From the NCBI RefSeq assembly GCF_009914755.1, contig NC_060933.1: a stretch of 64,000 bases of DNA; one strand, given 5' to 3'. Position 1 is the stretch's first letter; each line of letters starts with the position of its first letter. Below, in pieces: positions 1 to 64,000 of this stretch. The DNA is from the human T2T-CHM13v2.0 reference genome, Homo sapiens. The notes below the pieces were generated by a model. The model worked only from the letters and a program-made list of their open reading frames with translations, was not told the DNA's origin and did not search any database. Both the position numbers and the translations under genes were made by a program.

Positions 1-99
1 GAATGGAACGAAAAGGAAGGGAATGGAATGGAATAGAATGGAATGGAATGGAATCAACGCGAGTGCAGGGGAATGGAATGGAATGGAATGCAATGGAAT

Positions 100-114
100 G
101 GAATCTTCCGGAAT
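100..114. promoter_or_regulatory. Perfect canonical heat-shock element nGAAnnTTCnnGAAn (first of ~24 copies of GGAATCTTCCGGAAT)
   Basis: gGAAt-cTTCc-gGAAt matches the three-unit HSF1 trimer consensus exactly. HSF1 binding to SatIII arrays is established, but binding at this site is inferred. Confidence 0.55.
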
Positions 115-1849
115 GGAATGGAATGGAATGGAATGGAATGGAATGGAATGGAATCAACCCGAGTGCAATGGAATGGAGTGGAATGCAATGGAATGGAATG
201 GAACAACCCGAATGGAATGGAATGTAATGGAGAGTAAGGGAGTTGAATAGAATGAATCCGAATGTAATGGATTGGAATGGAACGGAACGGAACGCAATGG
301 AATGGAATGGAATCGAATGGAATGGAATCAACTCGAGTGCAGGGGAATGGATTGGAATGGAATGCAATGGAATGGAATCTTCCGGAATGGAATGGAATGG
401 AATGGAATGGAATGAAATGCAATGGGTTCAACTCGATTGCAATGGAATGGAATAGAATGGAATGGAATGGAATGGAATGGAATTAATTCGAATAGAATGG
501 AATGGAATGTAATGGAACGGAATGGAACGGAATGGAATGGAATGGAATGGAATGGTATGGAACGGAATGGAATGGTACGGAATAGAATGGAATGGAACGA
601 ATTGTAATGGAATGGAATTGAATGGAATGGAATGGAATGGAATGGAATCAACGCGACTGCAGGGGAATGTAATGGAACGGAATGCAATGGAATGGAATCA
701 TCCGCAATGGAATGGAATGGAATGGAATGGAATGGAATCAACCCGAGTGCAATGGAATGGAGTGGAATGGAATGGAATGGAATGGAACAACCCGAATGGA
801 ATGGAATGTAATGGAGAGTAAGGGAGTTGAATAGAATCAATCCGAATGTAATGGAATGGAATGCAACGGAATGGAATGGAATGGAATGGAATGGAATGGA
901 ATTAACCCTAATAAAATGGAATGGAATGGAATGGAACGGAATGGAGTGGAATGGAATGGAATCAACCCGAGTGCAGGGGAATCTAATGGAATGGAATGCA
1001 ATGGAATGGTATCATCCGGAATGGAATGGAATGGAATGGAATGCAAAGCAATGGAATCAACTCGATTGCAATGGAATGGAATGGAATGGAAAGGAATACA
1101 TTGGAATCAACCCGAGTGTAATGGAATGGAAAGGACTGGAATGGAGTGGAATGGAATGGAATGGAATGGAATGGAATCAACTCGATTGGAATGGAATGGA
1201 ATGGAATGGAATGGAATTAACCCGAATACAATGGAATGGAATGGAATGGAACGGAACGGATTGGAATGGAATGGAATGGAATGGAATGGAATGGAATGGA
1301 ATCAACCCGACTGCAGGGGAATGGGATGGAATGGAAGGCAATGGAATGGATTCAACTTGAACGGAATGGAAAGAATGGAATCAACACGAGTGGAATGGCA
1401 TGGATTGGAATGGAATGGAATGGAATCAACCCGAGTACAGGGGAATGGAATGGAATGCAATGCAATGGAATGGAATCATCCGTAATGGAATGGAAAGGAA
1501 TGGAATGGAATGGAATGGAATGGAATGGAATGGAATCAACTCGATTTCAATCGAATGGAATGGAATGGAATTAACCCGAATAGAATGGAATGGAATGGAA
1601 TGGAACGGAACGGAACGGAATGGAACGGAACGGAGTGGAATGGAATGGAATGGAATTGTATGGAATGGAATGGCATGGTACGGAATAGAATGGAATGGAA
1701 AGAATTGGAATGGAATGGAATCGAATGGAATGGAATGGAATGGAATGGAATCAACCCGAGTACAGGGGAATGTAATGCAAAAGAATGCAATGGAATGGAA
1801 TCATCCGGAATGGAATGGAATGGAATGGAATGGAATGGAATGGAATGGA

Positions 1850-4800
1850 ATGGAATCAACCCGAGTGCAATGGAATGGAGTGGAATGGAATGGAATGGAA
1901 TGGAGTGGAATGGAATCGAATGGAATGGAACAACCCGAATGGAATGGAATGTAATGGAGAGTAAGGGAGTTGAATAGAATCACTCCGAATGTAATGGAAT
2001 GGAACGGAATGGAATGGAATGGAATGGAATGGAATGGAATGGAATGGAATGGAATGCAATGGAATGGAATCAACCCGAGTACAATGGAACGGAATGGAAT
2101 GTAATGGAATGGAATGGAATGGAATGGAATGGAATGGAATGGAATCAACCTGAGTGTAATGGAATGGAGAGGAATGGAATGGAATGGAATGGAAACTAAC
2201 CGAATGGAATGGAATGTAATGGAGCGTAAGGGAATTGAATAGAATCAATCCGAATGGAATGGAATGGAATGGAACGGAATGTAATGGAATGGAATGAAAT
2301 GGAATCAACCCGAGTGCAGGCGAATGGAATGGAATGGAATGCAATGGAATGGAATCATCCGGAATGGAATGGAATGGAATGCAATGGAATGGAATGGAAT
2401 GGAATCAACCCGAGTGCAATGGAATGGAGTGAAATGGAATGGAATGGAATGGAAACAACCAGAATGGATTGTAATATATTGGAGTGTAAGGGAATGGAAT
2501 AGAATCAATCTGAATGTAATGAAATGGAATGGAACGGAATGAAATGGAATGGAATGGAATGCAATGGAATGGAATCAACCAGAGTGCAATCGAATGGAAT
2601 CGAATGGAATGGAATGCAATGGAATGGATTCAACTTGAATGGAAAGGAAAGAATGGAATCAACACGAGTGGAATGGCATGGATTGGAATGGAATGGAATG
2701 GAATCAACCCGAGTACAGGGGAATGGAATGGAATGGAATGCAATAGAATGGAATCATCAGTAATGGAATGGAAAGGAATGGAAAGGACTGGAATGGAATG
2801 GAATGTAATGGAATGGAATGGAATCAACTCGATTGCAATCGAATGGTATGGAATGGAATGGAATCAACTCGATTGCAATCGAATGGAATGGAATGCAATT
2901 AACCCGAATAGAATGGAATGGAATGGTATGGACCGGAACGGAATGGAATGGAATGGAATGGAATGGAACGGAAAGGAATGGAATGGAATGGAATGGAATG
3001 GAATGGAATGGAATGGAATGGAATCAACGCGCGTGCAGGGGAATGGAATGGAATCGAATGGAATGGAAAGGAATGGAATGGAATCAACCCGAGTGCAGGG
3101 GAATGTAATGGAACGGAATGCAATGGAATGGAATCATCCGGAATGGAATGGAATGGAATCAACCCGAGTGCAATGGAATGGAGTGGAATGGAATGGAATG
3201 GAATGGAACAACCCGAATGGAATGGAATGTAATGGAGAGTAAGGGAGTTGAAAAGAATCAATCCGAATGTAATGGAATGGAATGGAACGGAATGGAATGG
3301 AATGGAATGCAATGGAATGGAATCAACCCGAGTAAAATGGAAAGGAATGGAATGGAATGGAATGGAATGGAATGGAATGGAATGCAATGGAATGGAATCT
3401 TCCGGAATGGAATGGAATGGAATGGAATGGAATGCAATGGATTCAACTAGATTGCAATGGAATGGAATAGAATGGAATGGAATGGAATGCAATGGAATGG
3501 AATTAAACCGAATAGAATGGAATGGAATGGAATGGAACGGAACAGAACGGAAAGGAACGGAACGGAGTGGAATGGAATGGAATGGAATTGTATGGAATGG
3601 AATGGAATGGTACGGAATAGAATGGAATGGAAAGAATTGGAATGGAATGGAATCGAATGGAATGGAATGGAATGGAATGGAATCAACCCGAGTGCAAGGG
3701 AATGTAATGGGACGGAATGCAATGGAATGGAATCATCCGGAATGGAATGGAATGGAATGGAATGGAATGGAATGGAATGGAATCAACCCGAGCGCAATGC
3801 AATGGAGTGGAATGGAATGGAATGGAATGGAACAACCCGAATGGAATGGAATGTAATGGAGAGTAAGGGAGTTGAATTGAATCAATCCGAATGTAATGGA
3901 ATGGAACGGAATGGAATGGAAGGGAATGGAATGGAATGGAATGGAATGGAATGGAATGCAATGGAATGGAATCAACCCGAGTACAAAGGAACGGAATGGA
4001 ATGTAATGTAATGGAATGGAATGGAATGGAATGGAATGGAATGGAATGGAATGGAATGGAATCAACCCGAGTGCAATGGAATGGAGAGGAATGGAATGGA
4101 ATGGAATGCAATGGAATGGAATCATCCGGAATGGAAACCAATGGAATGGAATGCAAAGCAATGGAATCAACTCGATTGCAATGGAATGGAATGGAATGGA
4201 AAGGAATACATTGGAATCAACCCGAGTGGAATGGAATGGAAAGGACTGGAATGGAGTGGAATGGAATGGAATGGAATGGAATGGAATCAAATCGATTGGA
4301 ATGGAATGGAATGGAATGGAATGGAATGGAATGGAATGGAATGGAATTAATCCGAATAGAATGGAATGGAATGGAATGGAACGGATCGGAATGGAATGGA
4401 ATGGAATGGAATGGAAGGGAATGGAATGGAATGGAAACAACCCGACTGCAGGGGAATGGAATGGAATGGAATGGAATGGAAGGACACGGAATAGAATGGA
4501 ATGGAACGAAATGGAATGGAATGGAATGGAATGGAATGGAATGGAATGGAATGGAATCGTTCCGAGTGGAATAGGAGGGAATGTATTCGAGTGGAATGGA
4601 AAGGAATGGAATCAACCAGAGTGGAATGTAAGGGAATGGAATGGAATGGAAACTAATAGAATGGAATCAACCCGAGTGGAATGGAATGGAAAGGACTGGA
4701 ATGGAATGGAATGGAATGGAATCAACTCGATTGTAATGGAATGGAATGGAATGGAATGGAATGGAATGGAATGGAATTAACCCGAATACAATGCAATGGA

Positions 4801-5720
4801 ATGGAATGGAACGGAATGGAGTGGAATGGAATGGAATCAACCCGAGTGCAGGGGAATGGAATGGAATGGAATGCAATGGAATGGAATCATCCGGAATGGA
4901 ATGGAATGGAATGGAATGCAAAGCAATGGAATCAACTCGATTGCAATGGAATGGAATGGAATGGAAAGGAATACATTGGAATCAACCCGAGTGGAATGGA
5001 ATGGAAAGGACTGGAATGGAGTGGAATGGAATGGAATGGAATGGAATGGAATCAACTCGATTGGAATGGAATGGAATGGAATGGAATGGAATGGAATGGA
5101 ATTAAACCGAATAGAATGGAATGGAATGGAATGGAACGGAACGGAACGGAATGGAATGGAATGGAATGGAATGGAATGGAATGGAAACAACCCGACAGCA
5201 GGGGAATGGAATGGAATGGAATGGAAACAACCCGACTGCAGGGGAATGGAATGGAATGGAATGCAAAGGAATGGATTCAACTTGAATGAAATGGAAAGAA
5301 TGGAATCAACACGAGTGGAATGGCATGGATTGGAATGGAATGGAATGGAATCAACCCGAGTACAGAGGAATGGAATGGAATGGAATGCAATGGAATGGAA
5401 TTATCCGTAATGGAATGGAAAGGAATGGAATGGAATGGAATGGAATGGAATGGAATGGAATCAACTCGATTGCAATCGAACGGAATGGAATGGAATTAAC
5501 CCGAATAGAATGGAATGGAATGGAATGGAATGGAACGGAACGGAATGGAATGGATTGGAATGGAATGGAATGGAATGGAATGGAACGGAAAGGAATGGAA
5601 TGGAATGGAATGGAATGGAATGGAATGGAATGGAATGGAATGGAATCAACGCGAGTGCAGGGCAATGGAATGGAATGGAATGCAATGGAATGGAATCTTC
5701 CGGAATGGAATGGAATGGAA
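1850..5720 (+). repeat. ~3.85-kb segment duplicated in direct orientation at ~55135-58950
   Basis: Shared rare variants in the same order: ATCACTCCG (~1981/~55237), GGAGCGTAAG, GCAGGCGAATGG, AATATATTGG, CATCAGTAATGG, CGCGCGTGC, GGGACGG, CGGATCGG, AGGACACGG, CCGACAGC, TACAGAGG, GCAGGGCAATGG. Offset ~53.23-53.26 kb. Confidence 0.9.
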
Positions 5721-8169
5721 TGGAATGGAATGGAATAAACCCGAGTGCAATGGAATGGAGTGAAATGGAATGGAATGGAATGGAACAACCCGAATGGAAT
5801 GGAATGTAATGGAGAGTAAGGGAGTTGAATAGAATCAATCCGAATGTAATGGAATGGAATGGAACGGAATGGAATGGAATGGAATGGAATGGAATGCAAT
5901 GGAATTGAATCAACCCGAGTACAATGGAATGGAATGGAATGGAATGGAATGGAATGGAATGGAATGATACGGAATAGAATGGAATGGAAAGAAATGGAAT
6001 GGAATGGAATGGAATGGAATGGAATGGAATCAACCCGAGTGCTGGGGAATGGAATGGAATGGAATGCAATGGAATGGAATCATCCGGAATGGAATGGAAT
6101 GGAATGGAATGCAAAGCAATGGAATCAACTCGATTGCAATGGAATGGAATGGAATGGAAAGGAATACATTGGAATCAACCCGAGTGGAATGGAATGGAAA
6201 GGACTGGAATGGACTGGAATGGAATGGAATGGAATGGAATCAACTCGATTGGAATGCAATGGAATGGAATGGAATGGAATTAACCCGAATAGAATGGAAT
6301 GGAATGGAATGGAACGGAACGGAACGGAATGGAATGGAATGGAATGGAATGGAAGGCAATGGAATAGATTCAACTTGAATGGAATGGAAAGAATGGAATC
6401 AACACGAGTGGAATGGCATGGATTGGAATGGAATGGAATGGAATCAACCCGAGTACAGGGGAATGGAATGGAATGGAATGCAATGGAATGGAATCATCCG
6501 TTATGGAATGGAAAGGAATGGAATGGAATGGAATGGAATGGAATGGAATGGAATGGAATGGAATCAACTCGATTGCAATCGAATGGAATGGAATGGAATT
6601 AACCCGAATAGAATGGAATGGAATGGAATGGAACGGAATGGAATGGAATGGAATGGAATGGAATGGAACGGAAAGGAATGGAATGGAATGGAATGGAATG
6701 GAATGGAATGGAATGGAATGGAATCAACGCGAGTGCAGGGGAATGGAATGGAATCGAATGGAATGGAAAGGAATGGAATGGAATCAACCCGAGTGCAGGG
6801 GAATGTAATGGAACGGAATGCAATGGAATGGAATCATCCGGAATGGAATGGAATGTAATGGAATGGTATCAACCCGAGTGCAATGGAATGGAGTGGAATG
6901 GAATGGAATGGAATGGAACAACCCGAATGGAATGGAATGTAATGGAGAGTAAGGGAGTTGAAAAGAATCAATCCGAATGTAATGGAATGAAATGGAACGG
7001 AATGGAATGGAATGGAATGGAATGGAATGGAATGGAATGCAATGGAATGGAATCAACCCAAGTACAATGGAATGGAATGGAATGGAATGGAATAGAATGG
7101 AATGGAATGCAATGGAATGGAATCTTCCGGAATGGAATGGAATGGAATGGAATGGAATGGAATGGAATGCAATGGATTCAACTCGATTGCAATGGAATGG
7201 AATAGAATGGAATGGAATGGAATGGAATGGAATGGAATGGAATTAAACCGAATACAATGGAATGGAATGGAATGGAATGGAATGGAACAGAACGGAACGG
7301 AACGGAACGGAGTGGAAAGGAATGGAATGGAATTGTATGCAATGGAATGGAATGGTAAGGAATAGAATGGAATGGAAAGAATTGGAATGGAATGGAATGG
7401 AATGGAATGGAATGGAATCAAACCAAGCGCAATGGAATGGAGTGGAATGGAATGGAATGGAATGGAACAACCCGAATGGAATGGAATGTAATGGAGAGTA
7501 AGGGAGTTGAACAGAATCAATCCGAATGTAATGGAATGGAACGGAATGGAATGGAATGGAATGGAATGGAATGGAATGGAATGCAATGGAATGGAATCAA
7601 CCCGAGTACAATGGAACGGAATGTAATTTAATGTAATGTCATGGAATGGAACGGAATGGAATGGAATTGAATCAACCCGAGTGCAATGGAATGGAGAGGA
7701 ATGAAATGGAATGGAATGGAAACTACCCGAATGGAATGGAATGTAATGGAGTGTAAGGGAATTGAATAGAATCAATCCGAATGGAATGGAATGGAATAGA
7801 ACGGAATGTAATGTAATGGAATGGAATGGAATCAACCCGAGTGCAGGGGAATGGAATGGAATGGAATGCAATGGAATGGAATTATCCGGAATGGAATGGA
7901 ATGGAATGCAATGGAATGGAATGGAATGGAATCAACCCGAGTGCAATGGAATGGAGTGAAATGGAATGGAATGGAATGGAGACAACCAGAATGGATTGGA
8001 ATATAATGGAGTGTAAGGGAATTGAATAGAATCAATCTGAATGTAATGAAATGGAATGGAACGGAATGGAATGGAATGGAACGGAATGGAATGGAATGGA
8101 ATGCAATGGAATGGAATCAACCCGAGTGCAATCGAATGGAATCGAATGGAATGGAACGCAATGGAATGG

Positions 8170-11100
8170 ATTCAACTTGAATGGAATGGAAAGAATGGAA
8201 TCAACACGAGTGGAATGGCATGGATTGGAATGGAATGGAATGGAATCAACCCGAGTATAGGGGAATGGAATGGAATGGAATTCAATGGAATGGAATGATC
8301 CGTAATGGAATGGAAAGGAATGGAATGGAATGGAATGGAATGGAATGGAATCAACTCGATTGCAATCGAATGGAATGGAATGGAATTAACCCGAATAGAA
8401 TGGAATGGAATGGAATGGAACGGAACGGAATGGAATGGAATGGAATGGAATGGAATGGAATGGAGTGGAACGGAAAGGAAGGGAATGGAATGGAATGGAA
8501 TGGAATGGCATGGAATGGAATCAACACGAGTGCAGGGGAATGGAATGGAATGGAATGGAATGGAATGGAATCTTCCGGAATGGAATGGAATGGAATGGAA
8601 TGGAATGGAATGGAATGGAATAAACCCGAGTGCAATGGAATGGAGTGGAATGGAATGGAATGGAATGGAACAACCCGAATGGAATGGAATGTAATGGAGA
8701 GTAAGGGAGTTGAATAGAATCAATCCGAATGTAATGGAATGGAATGGAACGCAATGGAATTGAATGGAATGGAATGGAATGCAATGGAATGGAATCAACC
8801 CGAGTGCAATGGAATGGAGAGGAATGGAAAGGAATGGAATGGAAACTACCCGAATGGAATGGAATGTAATGGAGTGTAAGGGAATTGAATAGAATCAATC
8901 CGAATGTAATGGAATGGTATGGAACGGAATGGAATGGAATGTAATGGAATGGAATGGAATGGAATGCAATGGAATGGAATCAACCCGAGTGCAATCGAAT
9001 GGAATCGAATGGAATGGAATGCAATGGAATGGATTCAACTTGAATGGAATGGAAAGAATGGAATCAACACGAGTGGAATGGCATGGATTGGAATGGAATA
9101 TAATGGAATCAACCCGAGTACAGGGGAATGGAATGGAATGGAATGCAATGGAATGGAATCATCCGTAATGGAATGGAAAGGAATGGAATGGAATGGAATG
9201 GAATGGAATGGAATGGAATCAACTCGATTGCAATCGAATGGAATGGAATGGAATTAACCCGAATAGAATGGAATGGTACGGAACGGAATGGAATGGAATG
9301 GAATGGAATGGAATGGAATGGAATGGAATGGAATCAACGCGAGTGCAGGGGAATGGAATGGAATGGAATGCAATGGAATGGAGTCTTCCGGAATGGAATG
9401 GAATGGAATGGAATTGAATGAAATGCAATGGATTCAACTCGATTGCAATGGAATGGAATAGAATGGAATGGAATGGAATGGAATGGAATTAATTCGAATA
9501 GAATGGAATGGAATGGAATGGAACGGAATGGAACGGAATGGAATGGAATGGAAGGGAATGGAATGGTATGGAATGGAATGGAATGGAATGGTACGGAATA
9601 GAATGGAATGGAACGAATTGTAATGGAATGGAATTGAATGGAATGGAATGGAATGGAATGGAATCAACGCGAGTGCAGGGGAATGTAATGGAACGGAATG
9701 CAATGGAATGGAATCATCCGGAATGGAATGGAATGGAATGGAATGGAATGGAATGGAATCAACCCGAGTGCAATGGAATGGAGTGGAATGGAATGGAATG
9801 GAATGGAACAACCCGAATGGAATGGAATGTAATGGAGAGTAAGGGAGTTGAATAGAATCAATCCGAATGTAATGGAATGGAATGCAACAGAATGGAATGG
9901 AATGGAATGGAATGGAATGCAATGGAATTGAATCAACCCGAGTACAATGGAATGGAATGGAATGGAATGGAATGGAATGGAATGGAATGATACGGAATAG
10001 AATGGAATGGAACGAAATGGAATGGAATGCAATGGAATGGAATGGAATGGAGTGGAATGGAATGGAATCGTTCCGAGTGGAATAGGAGGGAATGTATTCG
10101 AGTGGAATGGAAAGGAATGGAATCAACCAGAGTGGAATGGAAGGGAATGGAATGGAATGGAAACTAATAGAATGGAATCAACCCGAGAGGAATGGAATGG
10201 AAAGGACTGGAATGGCATGGAATGGAATGGAATGGAATGGAATGGATTTAACGCGAATACAATGCAATGGAATGGAATGGAACGGAATGGAGTGGAATGG
10301 AATGGAATCAACCCGAGTGCAGGGGAATGGAATGGAATGGAATGCAATGGAATGGAATCTTCCGGAATGGAATGGAATGGAATGGAATGGAATAGAATGG
10401 AATGGAATGGAATGGAATGGAATCAACTCGATTGGAATGGAATGGAATGGAAAGGAATGGAATGGAATGGAATTAACCCGAATAGAATGGAATGGAATGG
10501 AATGGAACGGAACGGAATGGAATGGAATGGAATGGAAACAACCAGACTGCAGGGGAATGGAATGGAATGGAATGCAATGGAATGGGTTCAACTTGAATGG
10601 AATGGAACGAATGGAATCAACACGAGTGGAATGGCATGGATTGGAATGGAATGGAATGGAATCAACCCGAGTACAGGGGAATGGAATGGAATGGAATGCA
10701 ATGGAATGGAATCATCCGTAATGGAATGGAAAGGAATGGAATGGAATGGAATGGAATGGAATGGAATGGAATGGAATCAACTCGATTGCAATCGAATGGA
10801 ATGGAATGGAATTAAACCGAATAGAATGGAATGGAATGGAATGGAACGGAACGGAACGGAATGGAATGGATTGGAATGGAATGGAATGGAATGGAATGGA
10901 ACGGAAAGGAATGGAATGGAATGGAATGGAATGGAATGGAATGGAATCAACGCGAGTGCAGGGGAATGGAATGGAATGGAATGCAATGGAATGGAATGCA
11001 ATGGAATGGAATGGAATGGAATGGAATGGAATGGAATGGAATGGAATCAACCCGAGTGCAATGGAATGGAGTGGAATGGAATGGAACAACCCGAATGGAA

Positions 11101-15849: not shown

Positions 15850-16229
15850 TAATGGAGAGTTAGGGAGTTGAATAGAATCAATCCGAATGTAATGGAATGG
15901 AAGGGAATGGAATGGAATGGAATGGAATGGAATGGAATGGAATGGAATGCAATGGAATGGAATCAACCCGAGTACAATGGAACGGAATGGAATGGAATGG
16001 AATGGCATGGAATGGAATGGAATGGAATGGAATGGAATGGAATGGAGAGTTAGGGAGTTGAATAGAATCAATCCGAATGTAATGGAATGGAACGGAATGG
16101 AATGGAATGGAATGGAATGGAATGGAATGGAATGGAATGCAATGGAATGGAATCAACCCGAGTACAATGGAACGGAATGGAATGGAATGGAATGGCATGG
16201 AATGGAATGGAATGGAATGGAATGGAATG
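15850..16229 (+). repeat. 190-bp tandem duplication
   Basis: Private variant GGAGAGTTAGGGAG at ~15854 and ~16044. AATGGCATGG at 16001 and 16191. Confidence 0.85.
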
Positions 16230-17437
16230 GAATGGAATCAACCCAAGTGCAATAGAATGGAGAGGAATGGAATGGAATGGAATGGAAACTACCCGAATGG
16301 AATGGAATGTAATGGAGTGTAAGGGAATTGAATAGAATCAATCCGAATGTAATGGAATGGAATGGAACGGAATGGAATGGAATGGAATGGAATGGAATGG
16401 AATAAACCCGAGTGCAATGGAATGGAGTGGAATGGAATGGAATGGAATGGAACAACCCGAATGGAATGGAATGTAATGGAGAGTAAGGGAGTTGAATAGA
16501 ATCAATCCGAATGTAATGGAATGGAATGGAACGGAATGGAATTGAATGGAATGGAATGGAATGGAATCAACCCGAGTGCAATGGAATGGAGAGGAATGGA
16601 ATGGAATGGAATGGAAACTACCCGAATGGAATGGAATGTAATGGAGTGTAAGGGAATTGAATAGAATCAATCCGAATGTAATGGAATGGAATGGAACGGA
16701 ATGGAATGGAATGGAATGGAATGGAATGGAATCGAATGGAATGGAATGCAATGGAATGGAATCAACCCGAGTGCAATCGAATGGAATCGAATGGAATGGA
16801 ATGCAATGGAATGGATTCAACTTGAATGGAATGGAAAGAATGGAATCAACACGAGTGGAATGCCATGGATTGGAATGGAATGGAATGGAATCAACCCGAG
16901 CACAGGGGAATGGAATGGAATGGAATGCAATGGAATGGAATCATCCGTAATGGAATGGAAAGGAATGGAATGGAATGGAATGGAATGGAATGGAATGGAA
17001 TGGAATGGAATCAACTCGATTGCAATCGAATGGAATGGAATGGAATTAACCCGAATAGAATGGAATGGAATGGAATGGAACGGAACGGAACGGAACGGAA
17101 CGGAGTGGAATGAGTGGAATGGAATGGAATGGAATTGTATGGAATGGAATGGCATGGTACGGAATAGAATGGAATGGAAAGAATTGGAATGGAATGGAAT
17201 CGAATGGAAGGGAATGGAATGGAATGGAATCAACCCGAGTGCAATGGAATGGAGTGGAATGGAATGGAATGGAATGGAACAACCCGAATGGAATGGAATG
17301 TAATGGAGAGTAAGGGAGTTGAATAGAATCAATCCGAATGTAATGGAATGAAACGGAATGGAATGGAATGGAATGGAATGGAATGGAATGGAATGGAATG
17401 GAATGCAATGGAATGGAATCAACCCGAGTACAATGGA

Positions 17438-17456
17438 ACGGAATGGGTTTATTCCA
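17438..17456. other. Strand-switch junction 1 (GGAAT> <ATTCC)
   Basis: Sequence ...GGAACGGAAT[GG]GTTTATTCC. The forward repeat ends at 17446 and the reverse complement of GGAATAAACCC begins at 17445, giving 2-bp GG microhomology and no inserted bases. Confidence 0.95.
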
Positions 17457-53600: not shown

Positions 53601-54215
53601 GAATGGAAGGCAATGGAATGCAATCATCCGAAATGGAATGGAATTGCATGGAATGGAATGGTTTCAACCCGAATGGAATGGAATGGAAAGGAATCAACCC
53701 AAGTGGAATGGCATGGAATGGAATGGAATGGAATGGAATGGAATGGAATGGAATGGAATGGTATGGAATAGAATGGAATGGAACGAAATGGAATGGAAGG
53801 GAATGGAATGGAATGGAATGGAATCAACCCGACTGCAATGGAATGGAGTGGAATGGAATGGAATGGAATGGAAACAACCCGAATGGAATGGAATGTAATG
53901 GAGTGTAAGGGAATTGAATACAATCAATACGAATGTAATGGAATGGAATGGAACGGAACGGAATGGAATGGAATGGAATGGAATGGAATGGAATGGAATG
54001 GATTCAACCCAAATGGAATGGAAAGCAATGGAATCAACCCGAGTGGAATGGCATGGAACGGAATGGAATGGAATGGTATGGAATAGAATGGAATGCAAAG
54101 AAATGGAATGGAATGGAATGGAATGGAACGGAATGGAATGGAAAGGAATGGAATGGAATGGAATGGAATAGAATGGAATGGAACGAAATGGAATGGAATG
54201 GAACGGAATGGAATG
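44636..54215 (+). repeat. HSat3 block 3a: GGAAT on +, module type B
   Basis: Orientation returns to GGAAT after ...TTGCACACGG at 44635. Same type-B modules (AAACCTAG ~44770, ~47914, ~49793; CCGTGTGC ~46927, ~48741, ~50561; AATTAAAAAG ~45410, ~51747). Confidence 0.88.
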
Positions 54216-57200
54216 GAATCAATCCGAGTGGAATAGAAGGGAATGCAATCGAGTAGAATGGAAAGGAATGGAATCAACCAGAGTGGAATGGAAGGGAATG
54301 GAATGGAATGGAATGGAATGGAATGGAATGGAATGGAATGGAATCAAGTCGATTGCAATGGAATGTAATGGAATGGAGTGGAATGGAATTAACGCGAATA
54401 GAATGGAATGGAATGGAATGGAATGGAATGGAATCAACCTGAGTGCAGGGGAATGGAATGCAATGGAATGCAATGGAATGCAAAGGAATGGAATGGAATG
54501 GAATGGAATCAACGCGAGTACAGGGGAATGGAATTTAATGGAATGCAATGGAATGGAATCTTCCGGAATGGAATGGAATGGAATGGAATCAACCCGAGTG
54601 CAATGGAATGGAGAGGAATGGAATGGAATGGAATGGAACAACCCGAATGGAATCGAATGTAATGGAGAGTAAGGGAGTTGAATAGAATCAATCCGAATGT
54701 AATGGAATGGAATGGAACGGAATGGAATTGAATGGTATCGAATGGAATGCAATGGAATGGAATCAACCCGAGTGCAATGGAATGGAGAGGAATGGAATGG
54801 AATGGAATGGAAACTACCCGAATGGAATGGAATGTAATGGAGTGTAAGGGAATTGAATAGAATCAATCCGAATGTAATGGAATGGAATGGAACGGAATGG
54901 AATGGAATGGAATGGCATGGAATGGAATGGAATGGAATACAATGGAATGGAATCAACCCGAGTGCAATTGAATGGAATCGAATGTAATGGAATGCAATGG
55001 AATGGATTCAACTTGAATGGAATGGAAAGAATGGAATCAATACGAGTGGAATGGCATGGATTGGAATGGAATGGAATGGAATCAACCCGAGTACAGGGGA
55101 ATGGAATGGAATGGAATGCAATGGAATGGAATGGAATCAACCCGAGTGCAATGGAATGGAGTGGAATGGAATGGAATGGAATGGAACAACCCGAATGGAA
55201 TGGAATGTAATGGAGAGTAAGGGAGTTGAATAGAATCACTCCGAATGTAATGGAATGGAACGGAATGGAATGGAATGGAATGGAATGGAATGGAATGGAA
55301 TGGAATGGAATGCAATGGAATGGAATCAACCCGAGTACAATGGAACGGAATGGAATGTAATGTAATGTAATGGAATGGAATGGAATGGAATGGAATGGAA
55401 TGGAATCAACCCGAGTGCAATGGAATGGAGAGGAATGGAATGGAATGGAATGGAAACTACCCGAATGGAATGGAATGTAATGGAGCGTAAGGGAATTGAA
55501 TAGAATCAATCCGAATGGAATGGAATGGAATGGAACGGAATGTAATGGAATGGAATGAAATGGAATCAACCTGAGTGCAGGCGAATGGAATGGAATGGAA
55601 TGCAATGGAATGGAATCATCCGGAATGGAATGGAATGGAATGCAATGGAATGGAATGGAATGGAATCAACCCGAGTGCAATGGAATGGAGTGAAATGGAA
55701 TGGAATGGAATGGAAACAACCAGAATGGATTGGAATATATTGGAGTGTAAGGGAATGGAATAGAATCAATCTGAATGTAATGAAATGGAATGGAACGGAA
55801 TGGAATGGAATGGAATGGAATGCAATGGAATGGAATCAACCCGAGTGCAATCGAATGGAATCGAATGGAATGGAATGCAATGGAATGGATTCAACTTGAA
55901 TGGAAAGGAAAGAATGGAATCAACACGAGTGGAATGGCATGGATTGGAATGGAATGGAATGGAATCAACCCGAGTACAGGGGAATGGAATGGAATGGAAT
56001 GCAATAGAATGGAATCATCAGTAATGGAATACAAAGGAATGGAAAGGACTGGAATGGAATGGAATGTAATGGAATGGAATGGAATCAACTCGATTGCAAT
56101 CGAATGGTATGGAATGGAATGGAATCAACTCGATTGCAATCGAATGGAATGGAATGGAATTAACCCGAATAGAATGGAATGGAATGGTATGGAACGGAAC
56201 GGAATGGAATGGAATGGAATGGAATGGAACGGAAAGGAATGGAATGGAATGGAATGGAATGGAATGGAATGGAATGGAATGGAATCGAATGGAATCAACG
56301 CGCGTGCAGGGGAATGGAATGGAATCGAATGGAATGGAAAGGAATGGAATGGAATCAACCCGAGTGCAGGGGAATGTAATGGAACGGAATGCAATGGAAT
56401 GGAATCATCCGGAATGGAATGGAATGGAATCAACCCGAGTGCAATGGAATGGAGTGGAATGGAATGGAATGGAATGGAACAACCCGAATGGAATGGAATG
56501 TAATGGAGAGTAAGGGAGTTGAAAAGAATCAATCCGAATGTAATGGAATGGAATGGAACGGAATGGAATGGAATGGAATGGAATGCAATGGAATGGAATC
56601 AACCCGAGTACAATGGAATGGAATGGAATGGAATGGAATGGAATGGAATGGAATGCAATGGAATGGAATCTTCCGGAATGGAATGGAATGGAATGGATTG
56701 GAATGGAATGCAATGGATTCAAATCGATTGCAATGGAATGGAATAGAATGGAATGGAATGGAATGGAATGGAATGGAATTAAACCGAATAGAATGGAATG
56801 GAATGGAATGGAAAGGAACAGAACGGAATGGAACGGAACGGAGTGGAATGGAATGGAATGGAATTGTATGGAATGGAATGGAATGGTACGGAATAGAATG
56901 GAATGGAAAGAATTGGAATGGAATGGAATCGAATGGAATGGAATGGAATGGAATGGAATCAACCCGAGTGCAAGGGAATGTAATGGGACGGAATGCAATG
57001 GAATGGAATCATCCGGAATGGAATGGAATGGAATGGAATGGAATGGAATGGAATCAACCCGAGCGCAATGGAATGGAGTGGAATGGAATGGAATGGAATG
57101 GAACAACCCGAATGGAATGGAATGTAACGGAGAGTAAGGGAGTTGAATTGAATCAATCCGAATGTAATGGAATGGAACGGAATGGAATGGAAGGGAATGG

Positions 57201-60200
57201 AATGGAATGGAATGGAATGGAATGGAATGCAATGGAATGGAATCAACCCGAGTACAAAGGAACGGAATGGAATGTAATGTAATGTAATGGAATGGAATGG
57301 AATGGAATGGAATGGAATCAACCCGAGTGCAATGGAATGGAGAGGAATGGAATGGAATGGAATGCAATGGAATGGAATCATCCGGAATGGAAAGGAATGG
57401 AATGGAATGCAAAGCAATGGAATCAACTCGATTGCAATGGAATGGAATGGAATGGAAAGGAATACATTGGAATCAACCCGAGTGGAATGGAATGGAAAGG
57501 ACTGGAATGGAGTGGAATGGAATGGAATGGAATGGAATGGAATGGAATCAACTCGATTGGAATGGAATGGAATGGAATGGAATGGAATGGAATGGAATGG
57601 AATTAACCCGAATAGAATGGAATGGAATGGAATGGAACGGATCGGAATGGAATGGAATGGAATGGAATGGAAGGGAATGGAATGGAATGGAAACAACCCG
57701 ACTGCAGGGGAATGGAATGGAATGGAATGGAATGGAAGGACACGGAATAGAATGCAATGGAACGAAATGGAATGGAATGGAATGGAATGGAATGGAATGG
57801 AATGGAATGGAATCGTTCCGAGTGGAATAGGAGGGAATGTATTCGAGTGGAATGGAATGGAATGGAATCAACCAGAGTGGAATGGAAGGGAATGGAATGG
57901 AATGGAAACTAATAGAATGGAATCAACCCGAGTGGAATGGAATGGAAAGGACTGGAATGGAATGGAATGGAATGGAATCAACTCGATTGTAATGGAATGG
58001 ACTGGAATGGAATGGTATGGAATGGAATGGAATGGAATTAACCCGAATACAATGCAATGGAATGGAATGGAACGGAATGGAGTGGAATGGAATGGAATCA
58101 ACCCGAGTGCAGGGGAATGGAATGGAATGGAAAGCAATGGAATGGAATCATCCGGAATGGAATGGAATGGAATGGAATGCAAAGCAATGGAATCAACTCG
58201 ATTGCAATGGAATGGAATGGAATGGAAAGGAATACATTGGAATCAACCCGAGTGGAATGGAATGGAAAGCACTGGAATGGAGTGGAATGGAATGGAATGG
58301 AATGGAATGGAATCAACTCGATTGGAATGGAATGGAATGGAATGGAATGGAATGGAATTAAACCGAATAGAATGGAATGGAATGGAATGGAACGGAACGG
58401 AATGGAATGGAATGGAATGGAATGGAATGGAATGGAAACAACCCGACAGCAGGGGAATGGAATGGAATGGAATGGAAACAACCCGACTGCAGGGGAGTGG
58501 AATGGAATGGAATGCAAAGGAATGGATTCAACTTGAATGAAATGGAAAGAATGGAATCAACACGAGTGGAATGGCTTGGATTGGAATGGAATGGAATGGA
58601 ATCAACCCGAGTACAGAGGAATGGAATGGAATGGAATGCAATGGAATGGAATTATCCGTAATGGAATGGAAAGGAATGGAATGGAATGGAATGGAATGGA
58701 ATGGAATCAACTCGATTGCAATCGAATGGAATGGAATGGAATTAACCCGAATAGAATGGAATGGAATGGAATGGAATGGAACGGAACGGAATGGAATGGA
58801 TTGGAATGGAATGGAATGGAATGGAATGGAACGGAAAGGAATGGAATGGAATGGAATGGAATGGAATGGAATGGAATCAACGCGAGTGCAGGGCAATGGA
58901 ATGGTATGGAATACAATGGAATGGAATCTTCCGGAATGGAATGGAATGGAATGGAATGGCATGAAATGCAATGGATTCAACTCGATTGCAATGGAATGGA
59001 ATAGAATGGAATGGAATGGAATGGAATGGAATTAACCCGAATAGAATGGAATGGAATGGAATGGAACGGAATGGAACGGAATGGAATGGAATGGAATGGA
59101 ATGGAATGGAATGGAATGGTATGGAATGGAATGGAATGGAATCAACCCGAGTGCAATGGAATGGAGTGGAATGGAATGGAATGGGATGGAACAACCCGAA
59201 TGGAATGGAATGTAATGGAGAGTAAGGGAGTTGAATAGAATCAGTCCGAATGTAATGGAATGGAATGCAACGGAATGGAATGGAATGGAATTGAATGGAA
59301 TGGAATGGAATGGAATCAACCCGAGTACAATGGAATGGAATGGAATGGAATGGAATGGAATGGAATGGAATTGAATGGAATGGAATGCCTTCAAACCGAA
59401 TGGAATGGAAAGGAATGGAATCAACAAGAGTAAAATGGAATGGAATGGAATGGAAAGGAATGGAATGGAATGGAATGGTACGGAATAGAATGGAATGGAA
59501 CGAAATGGAATGGAATGGAATGGAATGGAATGGAATGGAATGGAATGGAATGGAATGGAATCGATCCGAGTGGAATAGGAGGGAATGTATTCGATTGGAA
59601 TGGAAAGGAATGGAATCAACCAGAGTGGAATGGAAGGGAATGGAATGGAATGGAAACTAATAGAATGGAATCAACCCGAGTGGAATGGAATGGAAAGGAC
59701 TGGAATGGAATGGAATGGAATGGAATGGAATGGAATGGAATCAACTCGATTGTAATAGAATGGAATGGAATGGAATGGAATGGAATGGAATGGAATGGCA
59801 TGGAATGGAATTAACCCGAATACAATGGAATGGAATGGAATGGAACGGAATGGAGTGGAATGGAATGGAATCAACCCGAGTGCAGGGGAATGGAATGGAA
59901 TGGAATGCAATGGAATGGAATCATCCGGAATGGAATGGAATGGAATGGAATGCAAAGCAATTGAATCAACTCGATTGCAATGGAATGGAATGGAATGGAA
60001 AGGAATAGAATGGAATCAACCCGAGTGGAATGGAATGGAAAGGACTGGAATGGAGTGGAATGGAATGGAATGGAATGGAATGCAATCAACTCGATTGGAA
60101 TGGAATGGAATGGAATGGAATGGAATGGAATCAACTCGATTGCAATCGAATGGAATGGAATGGAATTAACCCGAATAGAATGGAATGGAATGGAATTTAA

Positions 60201-63200
60201 CGGAACGGAATGGAATGGAATGGAATGGAATGAAATGGAACGGAACGGAACGGAATGGAATGGAATGGAATGGAATGGAATGGAAAGGAATCATCGCGAG
60301 TGCAGGGGAATGGAATGGAATGGAATGCAATGGAATGGAATCTTCCGGAATGGAATGGAATGGAATAGAATGGAATGAAATGCAATGGATTCAACTCGAT
60401 TGCAATGGAATGGAATGGAATGGAATGGAATGGAATGAAATGCAATGGATTCAACTCGATTGCAATGGAATGGAATAGATTGGAATGGAATGGAATGGAA
60501 TGGAATGGAATGGAATGGAATGGAATTAACCCGAATAGAATGGAATGGAATGGAATGGAACGGAATGGAAAGGAATGGAATGGAATGGAATGGAATGGTA
60601 TGGAATGGAATGGAATGGTACGGAATAGAATGGAATGGAACGAATTGTAATGGAATGGAATTGAATGGAATGGAATGCAATGGAATGGAATGGAATCAAC
60701 GCGAGTGCAGGGGAATGTAATGGAACGGAATGCAATGGAATGGAATCATCCGGAATGGAATGGAATGGAATGGAATGGAATGGAATCAACCCGAGTGCAA
60801 TGGAATGGAGTGGAATGGAATGGAATGGAATGGAACAACCCGAATGGAATGGAATGTAATGGAGAGTAAGGGAGTTGAATAGAATCAATCCGAATGTAAT
60901 GGAATGGAATGCAACGGATTGGAATGGAATGGAATGGAATGGAATGCAATGGAATGGAATCAACCCGAGTACAATGGAATGGAATGGAATGGAATGGAAT
61001 GGAATGGAAAGCCTTCAAACCGAATGGAATGGAAAGGAATGGAATCAACACGAGTGGAATGGAATGGAATGGAATGGAATGGAATGGAATGGAATGGAAT
61101 GATACGGAATAGAATGTAATGGAACGAAATGGAATGGAATGGAATGGAATGGAATGGAATGGAATGAAATGGAATGGAATCGTTCCGAGTGGAATAGGAG
61201 GGAATGTATTCGAGTGGAATGGAAAGGAATGGAATCAACCAGAGTGGAATGGAAGGGAATGGAATGGAATGGAAACTAATAGAATGGAATCAACCCGAGT
61301 GGAATGCAATGGAAAGGACTGGAATGGAATGGAATGGAATGGAATGGAATGGAATGGAATCAACTCGATTGGAATGGAATGGAATGGAATGGAATGGAAT
61401 GGAATTAACCCGAATACAATGGAATGGAATGGAATGCAACGGAATGGAGTGGAACGGAATGGAATCAACCCGAGTGCAGGGGAATGCAATGGAATGGAAT
61501 GCAATGGAATGGAGTCATCCGGAATGGAATGGAATGGAATGGAATGCAAAGCAATGGAATCAACTCGATTGCAATGGAATGGAATGGAATGGAAAGGAAT
61601 ACATTGGAATCAACCCGAGTGGAATGGAATGGAAAGGACTGGAATGGAGTGGAATGGAATGGAATGGAATGGAATGGAATCAACTCGATTGGAATGGAAT
61701 GGAATGGAATGGAATGGAATGGAATGGAATGGAATTAACCCGAATAGAATGGAATGGAATGGAATGGAACGGAACGGAACGGAACGGAACGGAATGGAAT
61801 GGAATGGAATGGAATGGAATGGAATGGAATGGAATCAACCCGACTACAGGGGAATGGAATGGAATGGAAAGCAATGGAATGGATTCAACTTGAATGGAAT
61901 GGAAAGAATGGAATCAACACGAGTGGAATGGCATGGATTGGAATGGAATGGAATGGAATCAACCCGAGTACAGGGGAAAGGAATGGAATGGAATGCAATG
62001 GAATGGAATCATCCGTAATGGAATGGAAAGGCATGGAATGGAATGGAATGGAATGGAATGGAATGGCATGGAATCAACTCGATTGCAATCGAATGGAATG
62101 GAATGGAATTAACCCGAATAGAATGGAATGGAATGGAATGGAACAGAACGGAACGGAATGGAATGGAATGGAATGGAATGGAACGGAAAGGAATTGAATG
62201 GAATGGAATGGAATGGAATGGAATGGAATGGAATGGAATCAACGTGAGTGCAGGGGAATGGAATGGAATGGAATGCAATGGAATGGAATCTTCCGGAATG
62301 GAATGGAATGGAATGGAATTGAATGGAATCAACCTGAGTGCAATGGAATGGAGTGGAATGGAATGGAATGGAATGGAACAACCCGAATGGAATCGAATGT
62401 AATGGAGAGTAAGGGAGTTGAATAGAATCAATCCGAATGTAATGGAATGGAATGGAACGGAATGGAATTGAATGGTATGGAATGGAATGCAATGGAATAG
62501 AATCAACGTGAGTGCAATGGAATGGAGAGGAATGGAATGGAATGGAATGGAAACTACCCGAAAGGAATGGAATGTAATGGAGTGTAAGGGAATTGAATAG
62601 AATCAATCCGAATATAATGGAATGGAATGGAACGGAATGGAATGGAATGGAATGGAATGGAATGGAATGGAATGGAATGGAATGGAATGCAATGGAATGG
62701 AATCAACCCGAGTGCAATCGAATGGAATCGAATGGAATAGAATGCAATGGAATGGATTCAACTTGAATGGAATGGAAACAATGGAATCAATACGAGTGGA
62801 ATGGCATGGATTGGAATGGAATGGAATGGAATCAACCCGAGTACAGGGGAATGGAATGGAATGGAATGCAATGGAATGGAATCATCCGTAATGTAATGGA
62901 AAGGAATGGAATGGAATGGAATGGAATGGAATGGAATGGAATGGAATGGAATCAACTCGATTGCAATCAAATGGAATGGAATGGAGTTAACCCAAATAGA
63001 ATGGAATGGAATGGAATGGAACGGAACGGAATGGAATGGAATGGAATGGAATGGAATGGAATCAACGCGAGTGCAGGGGAATGTAATGGAACGGAATGCA
63101 GTGGAATGGAATCATCCGGAATGGAATGGAATGGAATGGAATGGAATGGAATCAACCCGAGTGCAATGGAATGGAGTGGAATGGAATGGAATGGAATGGA

Positions 63201-64000
63201 ACAACCCGAATGGAATGGAATGTAATGGAGAGTAAGGGAGTTGAATAGAATCAATCCGAATGTAATGGAATGGAATGCAATGGATTGGAATGGAATGGAA
63301 TGGAATGGAATGCAATGGAATGGAATCAACCCGAGTACAATGGAATGGAATGGAATGGAATGGAATGGAATGGAAAGCCTTCAAACCGAATGGAATGGAA
63401 AGGAATGGAATCAACACGAGTGGAATGGAATGGAATGGAATGGAATGGAATGGAATGGAATGATACGGAATAGAATGGAATGGAACGAAATGGAATGGAA
63501 TGGAATGGAATGGAATGGAATGGAATAGTTCCGAGTGGAATAGGAGGGAATGTATTCGAGTGGAATGGAAAGGAATGGAATCAACCAGAGTGGAATGGAA
63601 GGGAATGGAATGGAATGGAAACGAATAGAATGGAATCAACCCGAGTGGAATGCAATGGAAAGGACTGGAATGGAATGGAATGGAATGGAATGGAATGGAA
63701 TGGAATCAACTCGATTGTAATGGAATGGAATGGAATGGAATGGAATGGAATGGAATGGAATGGAATTAACCCGAATACAATGGAATGGAATGGAATGCAA
63801 AGGAATGGAGTGGAATGGAATGGAATCAACCCGAGTGCAGGGGAATGCAATGGAATGGAATGCAATGGAATGGAGTCATCCGGAATGGAATGGAATGGAA
63901 TGGAATGCAAAACAATGGAATCAACACGATTGCAATGGAATGGAATGGAATGGAAAGGAATACATTGGAATCAACCCGAGTGGAATGGAATGGAAAGGAA
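54216..64000 (+). repeat. HSat3 block 3b: GGAAT on +, module type A (mosaic transition ~54216-54510)
   Basis: Type-A modules return (GGAATCTTCCGG 54555, GAGAGTAAGGGAGTTG ~54665, CAACTTG ~55009) and continue to the window end. Confidence 0.88.
60690..64000 (+). repeat. ~2.36-kb period repeat (second copy from ~63056, truncated by the window end)
   Basis: Shared variants AAAGCCTTCAAAC (~61008/~63374), GTGGAATGCAATGGAAAGGACT, GGAGTCATCC (~61511/~63872). Confidence 0.82.

What the first reader, a model, noticed from the sequence alone, without database searches (positions are those of the whole stretch)
1..64000. A> <A <B B> A> layout fits an inverted triplication (DUP-TRP/INV-DUP-like), not a simple inversion
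Seen: junction 1 joins type A to type A and junction 2 joins type B to type B. Undoing a simple two-break inversion would put both breakpoints exactly on A/B boundaries. A forward-reverse-forward template-switch path (replication-based, as in FoSTeS/MMBIR) gives this layout directly. It also explains the direct 53-kb-offset copy (1850-5720 = 55135-58950), the mirror arms and the 2-4 bp microhomologies. Inference: the array grew by tens-of-kb fold-back amplification, then by local tandem duplications.
Basis: inference. Interest (0 to 1): 0.8.

Follow-up and report, generated by a model that had tools for sequence, protein, structure and literature searches.

The report
Inherited inverted block in chr9 HSat3
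This is a 27-kb flipped stretch inside the giant satellite-3 array of human chromosome 9, and both of its edges are old junctions copied many times along the array, so it is an inherited piece of a known mosaic and not a fresh local triplication.

Summary
The layout is real. The (GGAAT)n satellite switches strand at 17447/17448 (J1, type A to type A) and at about 44631 (J2, type B to type B), giving A> <A <B B> A>. The 53-kb direct copy is real: 1963-5673 = 55219-58904, 96.7% identity.

The event did not happen here. A 40-mer across J2 occurs 85 times and one across J1 20 times, all on chr9 52-76 Mb, with 0 control hits. The breakpoints are identical in the copies I aligned. Each junction therefore formed once and was then spread by array amplification.

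The predicted forward B block just upstream is absent. The upstream 76 kb is type A, and J1 and J2 are the only strand switches in 264 kb. The three putative copies are not collinear. B2, B3 and a third B block 52 kb downstream are about equally related.

Both junctions show only a 2-bp GG microhomology. This argues against homologous recombination and leaves end joining or replicative template switching. A founder inverted duplication is most likely, but triplication versus fold-back cannot be settled. Many inversion breakpoints in this array are already published.

The parts
1..17447 (+). Forward (GGAAT)n HSat3, type A (segment S1). It continues upstream as forward type A for a further 76 kb.
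17440..17455 (.). J1, a head-to-head junction: ...GGAACGGAATGG|GTTTATTCCATTCC... It has 2-bp GG microhomology. It is one of 20 copies of the same junction on chr9.
17448..32900 (-). Inverted type A, the first part of segment S2. It contains a 3.9-kb tandem duplication.
32901..44631 (-). Inverted type B (B2). It is itself repetitive, with periods of about 7.3 kb and 2.45 kb.
44621..44660 (.). J2, a tail-to-tail junction: ...CCATTGCACACGG|AATGGAATGGAATGGAAAC... It has 2-bp GG microhomology. It is one of 85 copies of the same junction on chr9.
44632..54500 (+). Forward type B (B3). It is collinear with a third B block at window +96944 to +103648 (97.2% substitution identity). The transition to type A lies between about 54.0 and 55.2 kb.
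54501..64000 (+). Forward type A (the rest of S3). It continues forward for more than 100 kb beyond the window.
1963..5673 (+). Direct copy of 55219-58904 (offset 53,256; 96.7% identity with gaps, 98.9% by substitutions). Upstream of 1963 the homology switches to type-A contexts at +72.4 and +94.1 kb, not to B3.
55219..58904 (+). Partner of 1963-5673. It starts at the B3-to-A boundary.
22706..30398 (-). Local tandem duplication: 22706-26562 = 26657-30398 (99.4% substitution identity, 95.4% with gaps).
41307..44631 (-). 2.45-kb-period duplication: 41307-42247 = 43760-44631. The second copy ends exactly at J2. The inner copy shows the un-rearranged continuation CACACGG|GTTCATTCC. The same arrangement is present at the 63.29-Mb copy.
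36332..51237 (.). Mirror patches around J2: 36332-38838 = rc(48721-51237), 40294-41701 = rc(44969-46396), 42811-43415 = rc(44694-45233). They have 97.5-99.1% substitution identity and lie on three different antidiagonals (centres 43.78, 43.35 and 44.02 kb).

Best explanation
The window lies in the large HSat3 array of chromosome 9 (9q12). It holds one 27.2-kb inverted block (17448-44631) in an otherwise forward stretch of at least 264 kb.

Shown:
- Its two edges are not unique events. J1 (head-to-head, A|A) and J2 (tail-to-tail, B|B) are each one member of a junction family with base-identical breakpoints: 20 and 85 copies, or about 13 and 51 after collapsing CHM13's multi-Mb duplication. The copies are scattered in both orientations over chr9 52-76 Mb.
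- Each junction therefore formed once in an ancestral unit. It was then carried along as the array grew by large direct and inverted duplications.
- Around the junctions, sequence has since been remodelled by tandem duplications (2.45 kb, 3.9 kb, and 21.7 kb just outside the window) and by unit turnover. Paralogous copies now share only a few kb of flank.

Inferred:
- The founder events were non-homologous, microhomology-mediated joins (2-bp GG at both) that made an inverted duplication. This could have been a fold-back or template switch during replication or break repair.
- They were not a reciprocal two-break inversion and not recombination between inverted repeats.
For: Identity and context. 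The sequence is GGAAT repeats with CAACCCGAGT-type motifs. The window is chr9:75516001-75580000 in the held assembly. Only two strand switches occur in 264 kb.

Junction families.
- The 661-bp J2 probe gave 31 other full-length matches at 91-97%.
- The J2 40-mer gave 85 hits at up to 2 mismatches (71 exact; 49 forward, 36 reverse), all on chr9, with 0 hits for the reversed control.
- The J1 40-mer gave 20 hits (19 exact; 10 forward, 10 reverse), with 0 control hits.
- The breakpoint letters are identical in the window and in L002, L003 and L005 for J2, and in L031 for J1. Un-rearranged paralogues (L029, L030, L032, L033) run straight through.
- Five J2 copies are 94-96% identical to the window across 3.66 kb spanning both arms.

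Not a local triplication.
- No B block lies within 68 kb upstream.
- 1-kb chunks of S2 and S1 have their best matches scattered from -58 to +150 kb.
- Substitution identities for B2/B3, B2/Bd and B3/Bd are 96.3, 98.5 and 97.1% in one segment, and 97.6, 96.0 and 97.3% in another.

Microhomology. There is a 2-bp GG at both junctions and no long shared homology.

Module pattern elsewhere. A J2(+) lies 8-22 kb upstream of 10 of 20 J1 copies, and 27-58 kb downstream of 10 of 20.

Published context. [quoted passage not shown]
Against: - The founder mechanism is inferred, not shown.
- Mirror symmetry is patchy, and the first kb on each side of both junctions is at background identity (79%). A fold-back origin is therefore not demonstrated.
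- The paralogues used as 'un-rearranged' references are other repeat units, not true empty sites. A two-break inversion with small deletions at the breaks would escape the reciprocity test.
- GG occurs in the ATTCC-strand arms almost only inside the CGGGTT motif: 176 CGGGTT among 283 CGG in 27 kb. The tidy pairing of the four ends may therefore simply follow from use of GG.
- The inverted block (27.2 kb) is close to the B-to-B spacing of about 30.5 kb left after removing the 21.66-kb duplication. That is what inversion of one whole (B A) unit would give.
- The search tool scores only its best candidates. Counts are lower bounds.
- No read-level check of this part of the assembly was possible.
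Confidence: 0.6

Rival explanations
1. A single forward-reverse-forward replicative template switch (FoSTeS/MMBIR-like) in an ancestral unit made B>A>|<A<B|B>A>, creating J1 and J2 together. Unequal exchange between the two flanking direct copies then multiplied the module. At this locus the upstream B was later lost or pushed away by type-A duplications.
For: - The layout places J1 within A and J2 within B without needing breakpoints on A/B boundaries.
- Both junctions have 2-bp microhomology.
- 10 of 20 J1 copies have a J2(+) 8-22 kb upstream, and 10 of 20 have a J2(+) 27-58 kb downstream. Three loci show J2-J1-J2 in one orientation with spacings of 19+40, 8+45 and 14+58 kb.
- The 53-kb direct copy lies at about such a period.
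- The upstream type-A region carries recent 15-19-kb and 10-kb duplications that could have displaced a B block.
Against: - No B lies within 68 kb upstream here. The B-like block at -92 to -68 kb is not collinear with B2 or B3.
- The middle copy lacks the 3.7-kb segment shared by copies 1 and 3. Its B-to-A boundary matches the block at +103 to +107 kb instead.
- J2 has about four times as many copies as J1, which is unexpected if the two always travelled together.
- Forward segments between J2 and J1 (8-22 kb) are consistently shorter than reverse segments between J1 and J2 (27-58 kb).
- In the one module fetched (74.27 Mb), the B-like part after J2 is only about 3 kb long.
Confidence: 0.22
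2. Simple two-break inversion, joined by end joining, of exactly one (B A) unit in an ancestral (B A)n array. The inverted unit was then amplified along with the array.
For: - The inverted block is 27.2 kb. The spacing between B3 and the next B block is about 30.5 kb once the 21.66-kb recent duplication is removed.
- Short microhomology is also typical of end-joined inversions (general knowledge).
- B2 and B3 start at nearly the same phase of the B sub-repeat (offset about 135-160 bp).
Against: - It needs both breaks to fall on A-to-B boundaries.
- The type-A ends at J1 do not resemble the type-A sequence before the one native A-to-B boundary examined (at +96.9 kb).
- L and X, and L' and Y, are only 79% alike in the first kb. 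The two supposed boundaries would therefore not be paralogous.
- The ancestral L-L' 10-mers occur 0 times in 8 of 9 placements of the ambiguous GG and once in the ninth; the X-Y 10-mers occur 0 times in 5 of 9 placements, and one X-Y 10-mer (AACCCGAATG) is common at 231 hits.
- 8 of 8 other L copies continue as (GGAAT)n.
Confidence: 0.13
3. Assembly artefact. The strand switches in this window would be mis-joins in a very repetitive region.
For: - The region is 89% masked satellite (hub note).
- CHM13's chr9 array contains a multi-Mb near-identical duplication that needed special graph traversal (PMC9186530, passages).
Against: - The same breakpoints recur 85 and 20 times with diverged flanks (91-97% for J2 copies, 90-92% for J1 copies). 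A chance mis-join would not produce that.
- Mosaic inversions in HSat arrays are reported by the assembly's authors.
Confidence: 0.03

Closest known systems
Mosaic inversion structure of the chr9 HSat3 (HSat3B5) array in T2T-CHM13 (Altemose et al., preprint 10.1101/2021.07.12.452052, section 7 read; Nurk et al., PMC9186530, passages read)
   Same: Same array and same phenomenon: strand switches inside a (GGAAT)n-derived satellite. The window's two switches are presumably among the published 'over 200 inversion breakpoints'.
   Different: The texts I read give counts only. Here the two breakpoints are resolved to the base, shown to belong to multi-copy junction families, and shown to carry 2-bp microhomology. 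The preprint's Tables S6 and S7 and its supplements could not be opened and may list or analyse the breakpoints.
DUP-TRP/INV-DUP complex rearrangements (definition recalled from memory: Carvalho et al. 2011; not read here)
   Same: Forward-reverse-forward order of related sequence, two junctions, and at least one microhomology junction.
   Different: Neither junction lies in long pre-existing inverted repeats. Three collinear copies are not present at this locus. No reference allele is available to show copy-number 2-3-2.
Fold-back inverted duplications (Hermetz et al. 2014, PMC3907307, only the search listing and start of the abstract seen; yeast foldback inversions, PMC7467729, listing only)
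   Same: Head-to-head or tail-to-tail junction with related inverted arms, short microhomology and possibly a short asymmetric spacer (offsets of about 0.14-1.3 kb between the J2 arms).
   Different: Those events are terminal or chromosome-scale and recent. Here the junctions sit inside a satellite, are old and amplified, and the arms next to the junction are no longer mirror images.
Palindromic / breakage-fusion-bridge amplification (general knowledge)
   Same: Both orientations of each junction occur. Sets such as J1(-), J2(+), J1(+) with 8.4-kb and 8.2-kb arms at 60.20-60.22 Mb and 70.85-70.87 Mb look like nested inverted duplication.
   Different: No evidence of dicentric intermediates or terminal deletions. 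This is a germline satellite array, not a tumour amplicon.

Membership tests
Human satellite 3 (HSat3), chr9 9q12 array | Diverged (GGAAT)n / (ATTCC)n pentamer repeats interspersed with CAACCCGAGT-like motifs (definition recalled) | tested here: met
   Read directly. Strong GC and AT skew that flips with strand.
Human satellite 3 (HSat3), chr9 9q12 array | Location inside the multi-Mb chr9 array | tested here: met
   The window is C9:75516001-75580000. Junction copies span 52.3-76.4 Mb of the same contig. The paper gives 27.6 Mb for the chr9 array.
Human satellite 3 (HSat3), chr9 9q12 array | Subfamily B5 marker k-mers | not tested
No marker set was available. The subfamily name is taken from Altemose et al..
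DUP-TRP/INV-DUP | Three collinear copies of one segment, with the middle one inverted | tested here: not met
   Only 3.7 kb links S1 to S3. S2 chunks match scattered places. The B-to-A boundaries differ. No B lies upstream within 68 kb.
DUP-TRP/INV-DUP | One junction formed through pre-existing long inverted repeats (recalled definition) | tested here: not met
   Both junctions show only 2-bp GG overlap against un-rearranged paralogues.
DUP-TRP/INV-DUP | Second junction with microhomology or blunt joining | tested here: met
DUP-TRP/INV-DUP | Copy-number gain relative to an un-rearranged allele | not testable with these tools
   Only one human assembly is held.
Fold-back inverted duplication | Arms that mirror each other from the junction outwards, with at most a short spacer | tested here: inconclusive
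   J2 has ordered mirror patches of 0.6-2.5 kb at 97.5-99.1% substitution identity, on three antidiagonals. The first kb is 79% at both J1 and J2. B2 is as close to the direct copy Bd as it is to its mirror B3.
Fold-back inverted duplication | Microhomology at the junction | tested here: met
   2-bp GG
Reciprocal two-break inversion | The sequence after the left break (L') follows L, and Y follows X, in un-rearranged copies | tested here: inconclusive
   This is not seen. 8 of 8 other L copies continue as (GGAAT)n. The required L-L' 10-mers are absent in 8 of 9 placements and the X-Y 10-mers in 5 of 9. However, the references are paralogues, and small deletions at the breaks would hide reciprocity.

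The most novel reading that the evidence does not exclude
A large share of the published 200-plus strand switches, of which the chr9 satellite-3 array holds a share, descend from a handful of founder junctions. J2 alone supplies 85 of the strand switches on chr9. J1 and J2 were made together by one forward-reverse-forward replicative template switch that used GG microhomology at the only G-rich motif of the ATTCC strand. The resulting palindrome-bearing module of about 40-60 kb then became the unit by which the array expanded.
Probability: 0.22. Interest if true: 0.5.

Novelty: already known. Interest (0 to 1): 0.3.

Why it matters
Strand switches in the chr9 HSat3 array are already reported, so the feature itself is not new. 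The useful points are three.

- Windows in such arrays cannot be read as records of local events. Both junctions here are inherited copies.
- The many 'inversion breakpoints' counted in the array collapse into a few families with identical breakpoints. This makes it feasible to date the founder events and order the amplification steps across complete human and ape genomes.
- Both founder joins used the same 2-bp GG at the CGGGTT motif. This points to non-homologous, microhomology-guided joining, not recombination, as the source of inversions in this satellite.

Tried and rejected
BLAST self-comparison.
- timed out.
- Searches returned almost nothing or truncated hits, because of containment culling and seed limits in satellite sequence. 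They were not used, except as pointers that were later re-checked.

Failed scripts of my own.
- The first diagonal k-mer scan saturated on (GGAAT)n words and was discarded.
- The first aligner had the wrong end-gap setting and gave diluted identities. It was discarded and redone.

Genome searches and fetches.
- A 10-kb genome search across J1 was patchy. It did not list even the self match and was used only as a lead.
Only one other module could be examined (74.264-74.294 Mb, 30 kb). The ancestral module could therefore not be reconstructed.

Periodic alternating palindromes. This idea predicted a J1 just past the window end. It was rejected because no further strand switch exists within 100 kb on either side.

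Re-inserted circular DNA or a whole-period templated insertion.
- The idea came from the four ends pairing cleanly as L+Y (GGAATGGAAT, 18,988 occurrences) and X+L' (AACCCGTGTG, 29 occurrences).
- It is not needed. GG microhomology is available on the ATTCC strand almost only at CGG^GTT, which produces the same pattern.
- It is kept only as a remote possibility.

The upstream B-like block (-92 to -68 kb) as the missing 'copy 1'. This was rejected because the block consists of repeats of one B sub-unit (the one at 39.2-39.9 kb) and is not collinear with B2 or B3.

Full report
**What is in the window.**
The sequence is human satellite 3: diverged GGAAT pentamers with CAACCCGAGT-like motifs. GC skew is +0.6 up to about 17 kb, -0.6 up to about 44.6 kb, then +0.6 again. 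Counts of GGAAT against ATTCC in 200-bp bins change sign only twice.
- Read directly, the first switch (J1) is ...CAATGGAACGGAATGG|GTTTATTCCATTCC... at 17447/17448.
- The second (J2) is ...CCATTCCATTGCACACGG|AATGGAATGGAATGGAAACAACCC... at about 44631.
- The held assembly confirms the place as contig 9, 75,516,001-75,580,000. This is the 9q12 HSat3 array.

**Checking the observation.**
A 21-mer identity matrix of 1-kb blocks on both strands shows two sequence types.
- Blocks 0-17 (forward), 18-32 (reverse) and 54-63 (forward) resemble one another and form type A.
- Blocks 33-44 (reverse) and 45-53 (forward) resemble each other and not type A. They form type B.
- The layout A> <A <B B> A> is therefore real. 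J1 joins A to A and J2 joins B to B.

The 53-kb direct copy is also real. 1963-5673 matches 55219-58904 at 96.7% identity (98.9% counting substitutions only). It is not a private pair: its first 1.2 kb is equally close to copies at +73.0 and +94.7 kb outside the window.

Mirror arms exist around J2 as ordered patches of 0.6-2.5 kb at 97.5-99.1% substitution identity, but on three different antidiagonals. Around J1 there are only two short patches. The first kilobase on either side of each junction is 79% identical, which is background level.

Local tandem duplications are confirmed. One has a 3.9-kb period at 99.4% substitution identity. Another has a 2.45-kb period, and its outer copy ends exactly at J2.

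**The junctions are not local events.**
- The 661 bases across J2 have 31 other full-length matches at 91-97% on chr9. The 661 bases across J1 have 16 at 90-92%.
- Exact-pattern searches are cleaner. A 40-mer spanning J2 occurs 85 times at up to 2 mismatches (71 exact; 49 forward, 36 reverse). One spanning J1 occurs 20 times (19 exact; 10 forward, 10 reverse). All hits lie on chr9 between 52.3 and 76.4 Mb, and the reversed-pattern control gave zero hits.
- In alignments, the breakpoint letters are identical in the window and in the copies at 72.56, 71.17 and 62.2 Mb for J2, and at 66.53 Mb for J1. Other paralogues of the same arms run straight on without a strand switch.
- Five J2 copies are 94-96% identical to the window over 3.66 kb covering both arms.
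- Many copies come in pairs about 8.75 or about 10.6 Mb apart. This fits the recent multi-megabase HSat3 duplication described for CHM13 (PMC9186530, passages). Collapsing those pairs leaves roughly 51 J2 and 13 J1 copies.

Each junction was therefore made once and then propagated, in both orientations, as the array grew.

I fetched 100 kb on each side of the window.
- J1 and J2 are the only strand switches in the 264 kb.
- Upstream of the window the sequence is forward type A for 76 kb. B-like blocks lie at -92 to -78 kb (plus -70 and -68 kb), at 33-54 kb (the two arms), and at +96 to +104 kb.
- The upstream block is built from repeats of a single B sub-unit and is not collinear with B2 or B3.
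- The downstream block (Bd) is collinear with B3 over 6.2 kb.
- B2, B3 and Bd are about equally related. Substitution identities for B2/B3, B2/Bd and B3/Bd are 96.3, 98.5 and 97.1% in one segment, and 97.6, 96.0 and 97.3% in another. The mirror pair is therefore no younger than the direct pair.
- 1-kb chunks of the inverted block and of segment S1 find their best matches scattered between about -58 and +150 kb, not along one diagonal.
- The inverted block has no counterpart of the 3.7-kb S1/S3 copy. Its B-to-A boundary resembles that of Bd (93-96%), not that of the adjacent B3.
- Upstream of 1963, S1 follows type-A contexts at +72.4 and +94.1 kb, not B3.

At this locus the prediction of a forward B block just upstream fails, and three collinear copies are not present.

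**What the family pattern says.**
I put all J1 copies in one orientation.
- 10 of 20 have a J2 in the same orientation 8-22 kb upstream, that is <B|B> ... A>|<A.
- 10 of 20, including the window at 27.2 kb, have one 27-58 kb downstream.
- Several places show J2-J1-J2 in series, with spacings of 19+40, 8+45 and 14+58 kb.
- Two places show J1(-), J2(+), J1(+) with arms of about 8.3 kb.

It does not show how the module arose.

The one other module I could fetch lies at 74.264-74.294 Mb. It shares only a few kb with the window next to each junction, and its B-like part after J2 is only about 3 kb. Surrounding sequence has turned over too much for a reconstruction from the letters I was allowed.

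**Mechanism.**
Against un-rearranged paralogues, both junctions show a 2-bp GG that could belong to either side, and no longer homology. That rules out recombination between long inverted repeats at the junctions, and with it the defining junction of DUP-TRP/INV-DUP as I recall it.

A reciprocal two-break inversion is not favoured.
- It would need both breaks on A-to-B boundaries.
- The type-A ends at J1 do not resemble the type-A sequence before the one native A-to-B boundary examined.
- 8 of 8 other copies of the J1 left-arm 27-mer continue as ordinary GGAAT repeats.
- The ancestral join 10-mers it requires are absent from 264 kb at the L-L' join in 8 of 9 placements of the ambiguous GG (one hit in the ninth) and at the X-Y join in 5 of 9.

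These tests use paralogues, not true empty sites, and small deletions at the breaks would hide reciprocity. The block length (27.2 kb) is also close to the B-to-B spacing of about 30.5 kb once a 21.66-kb recent duplication is removed. I therefore keep simple inversion as a minority rival.

The four ends pair neatly as L+Y and X+L', which briefly suggested a re-inserted circle. However, GG on the ATTCC strand occurs almost only inside CGGGTT: 176 CGGGTT among 283 CGG in 27 kb. Any GG-guided join would land there.

My best reading is an old, non-reciprocal inverted duplication made by microhomology-guided joining, through either fold-back or template switching. Later amplification and local remodelling followed. 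Whether J1 and J2 arose together remains open.

**Comparison with what is known.**
- Nurk et al. mention a 'mosaic inversion structure' in HSat arrays (PMC9186530; passages read).
- Neither text, as far as I read, analyses breakpoint sequences or mechanism.
- Four full-text searches listed no paper that combines HSat3 with fold-back or inverted-duplication analysis. In one search all 12 listed papers had zero occurrences of HSat3.
- The definitions of DUP-TRP/INV-DUP and of FoSTeS/MMBIR are recalled, not read here. For Hermetz et al. (PMC3907307) I saw only the listing and the start of the abstract.

**Verdict.**
However, the event is ancestral and amplified, the local prediction fails, and a triplication is not demonstrated. 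The feature belongs to an already described phenomenon, so interest is modest.

Noticed in passing
outside the window: window coordinates +66650 to +75075 and +88312 to +96752 (L019-L021): An 8.4-kb stretch is repeated at an offset of 21.66 kb with 99.8% substitution identity (98.7% with gaps). This is a very recent tandem duplication in the type-A array, ending just before the third B block.
   Followed up: partly
outside the window: -54 to -8 kb (L013-L018): 2-kb blocks recur at about 15-19 kb spacing with k-mer identity of at least 98.5% (for example -52/-36/-18 kb and -50/-34/-30/-16 kb). Blocks at -76 to -72 kb recur at -66 to -62 kb. These are recent direct duplications of type A upstream of the window.
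   Followed up: no
chr9 52-72 Mb (coordinates): Junction copies come in same-strand pairs about 8.75 Mb and about 10.6 Mb apart (34 of 85 J2 hits and 7 of 20 J1 hits are the later member of such a pair). This matches the multi-megabase 9qh+ HSat3 duplication reported for CHM13.
   Followed up: partly
chr9 60,202,474 / 60,210,879 / 60,219,084 and 70,855,010 / 70,863,430 / 70,871,640: J1(-), J2(+), J1(+) lie in series with arms of 8.4 and 8.2 kb. This is a palindrome-like set centred on J2 in which the forward-arm side of J1 is attached to both arms of J2. In the window the arrangement differs. It points to nested inverted duplications.
   Followed up: no
window 33000-44631 and 44632-54000; +96944 to +104720: Type B is itself a nested tandem repeat with a period of about 7.3-7.4 kb and a sub-period of about 1.2-2.45 kb. 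The three B blocks hold about 1.6, 1.3 and 1.1 periods.
   Followed up: partly
window 17000-17446; L029, L030, L031: The last ~450 bp before J1 is about 99% identical in all four copies aligned, including two without the junction. The sequence just after J1 differs at several sites in the ~110 bp aligned between the window and the 66.5-Mb copy. Some units of the array are therefore far more homogeneous than their neighbours.
   Followed up: no
chr9 63,290,004-63,292,762 (L032): The inner copy of the 2.45-kb duplication next to J2 is also present about 2.4 kb before the J2 copy at 63.29 Mb. This 'local' duplication therefore predates at least part of the amplification.
   Followed up: partly
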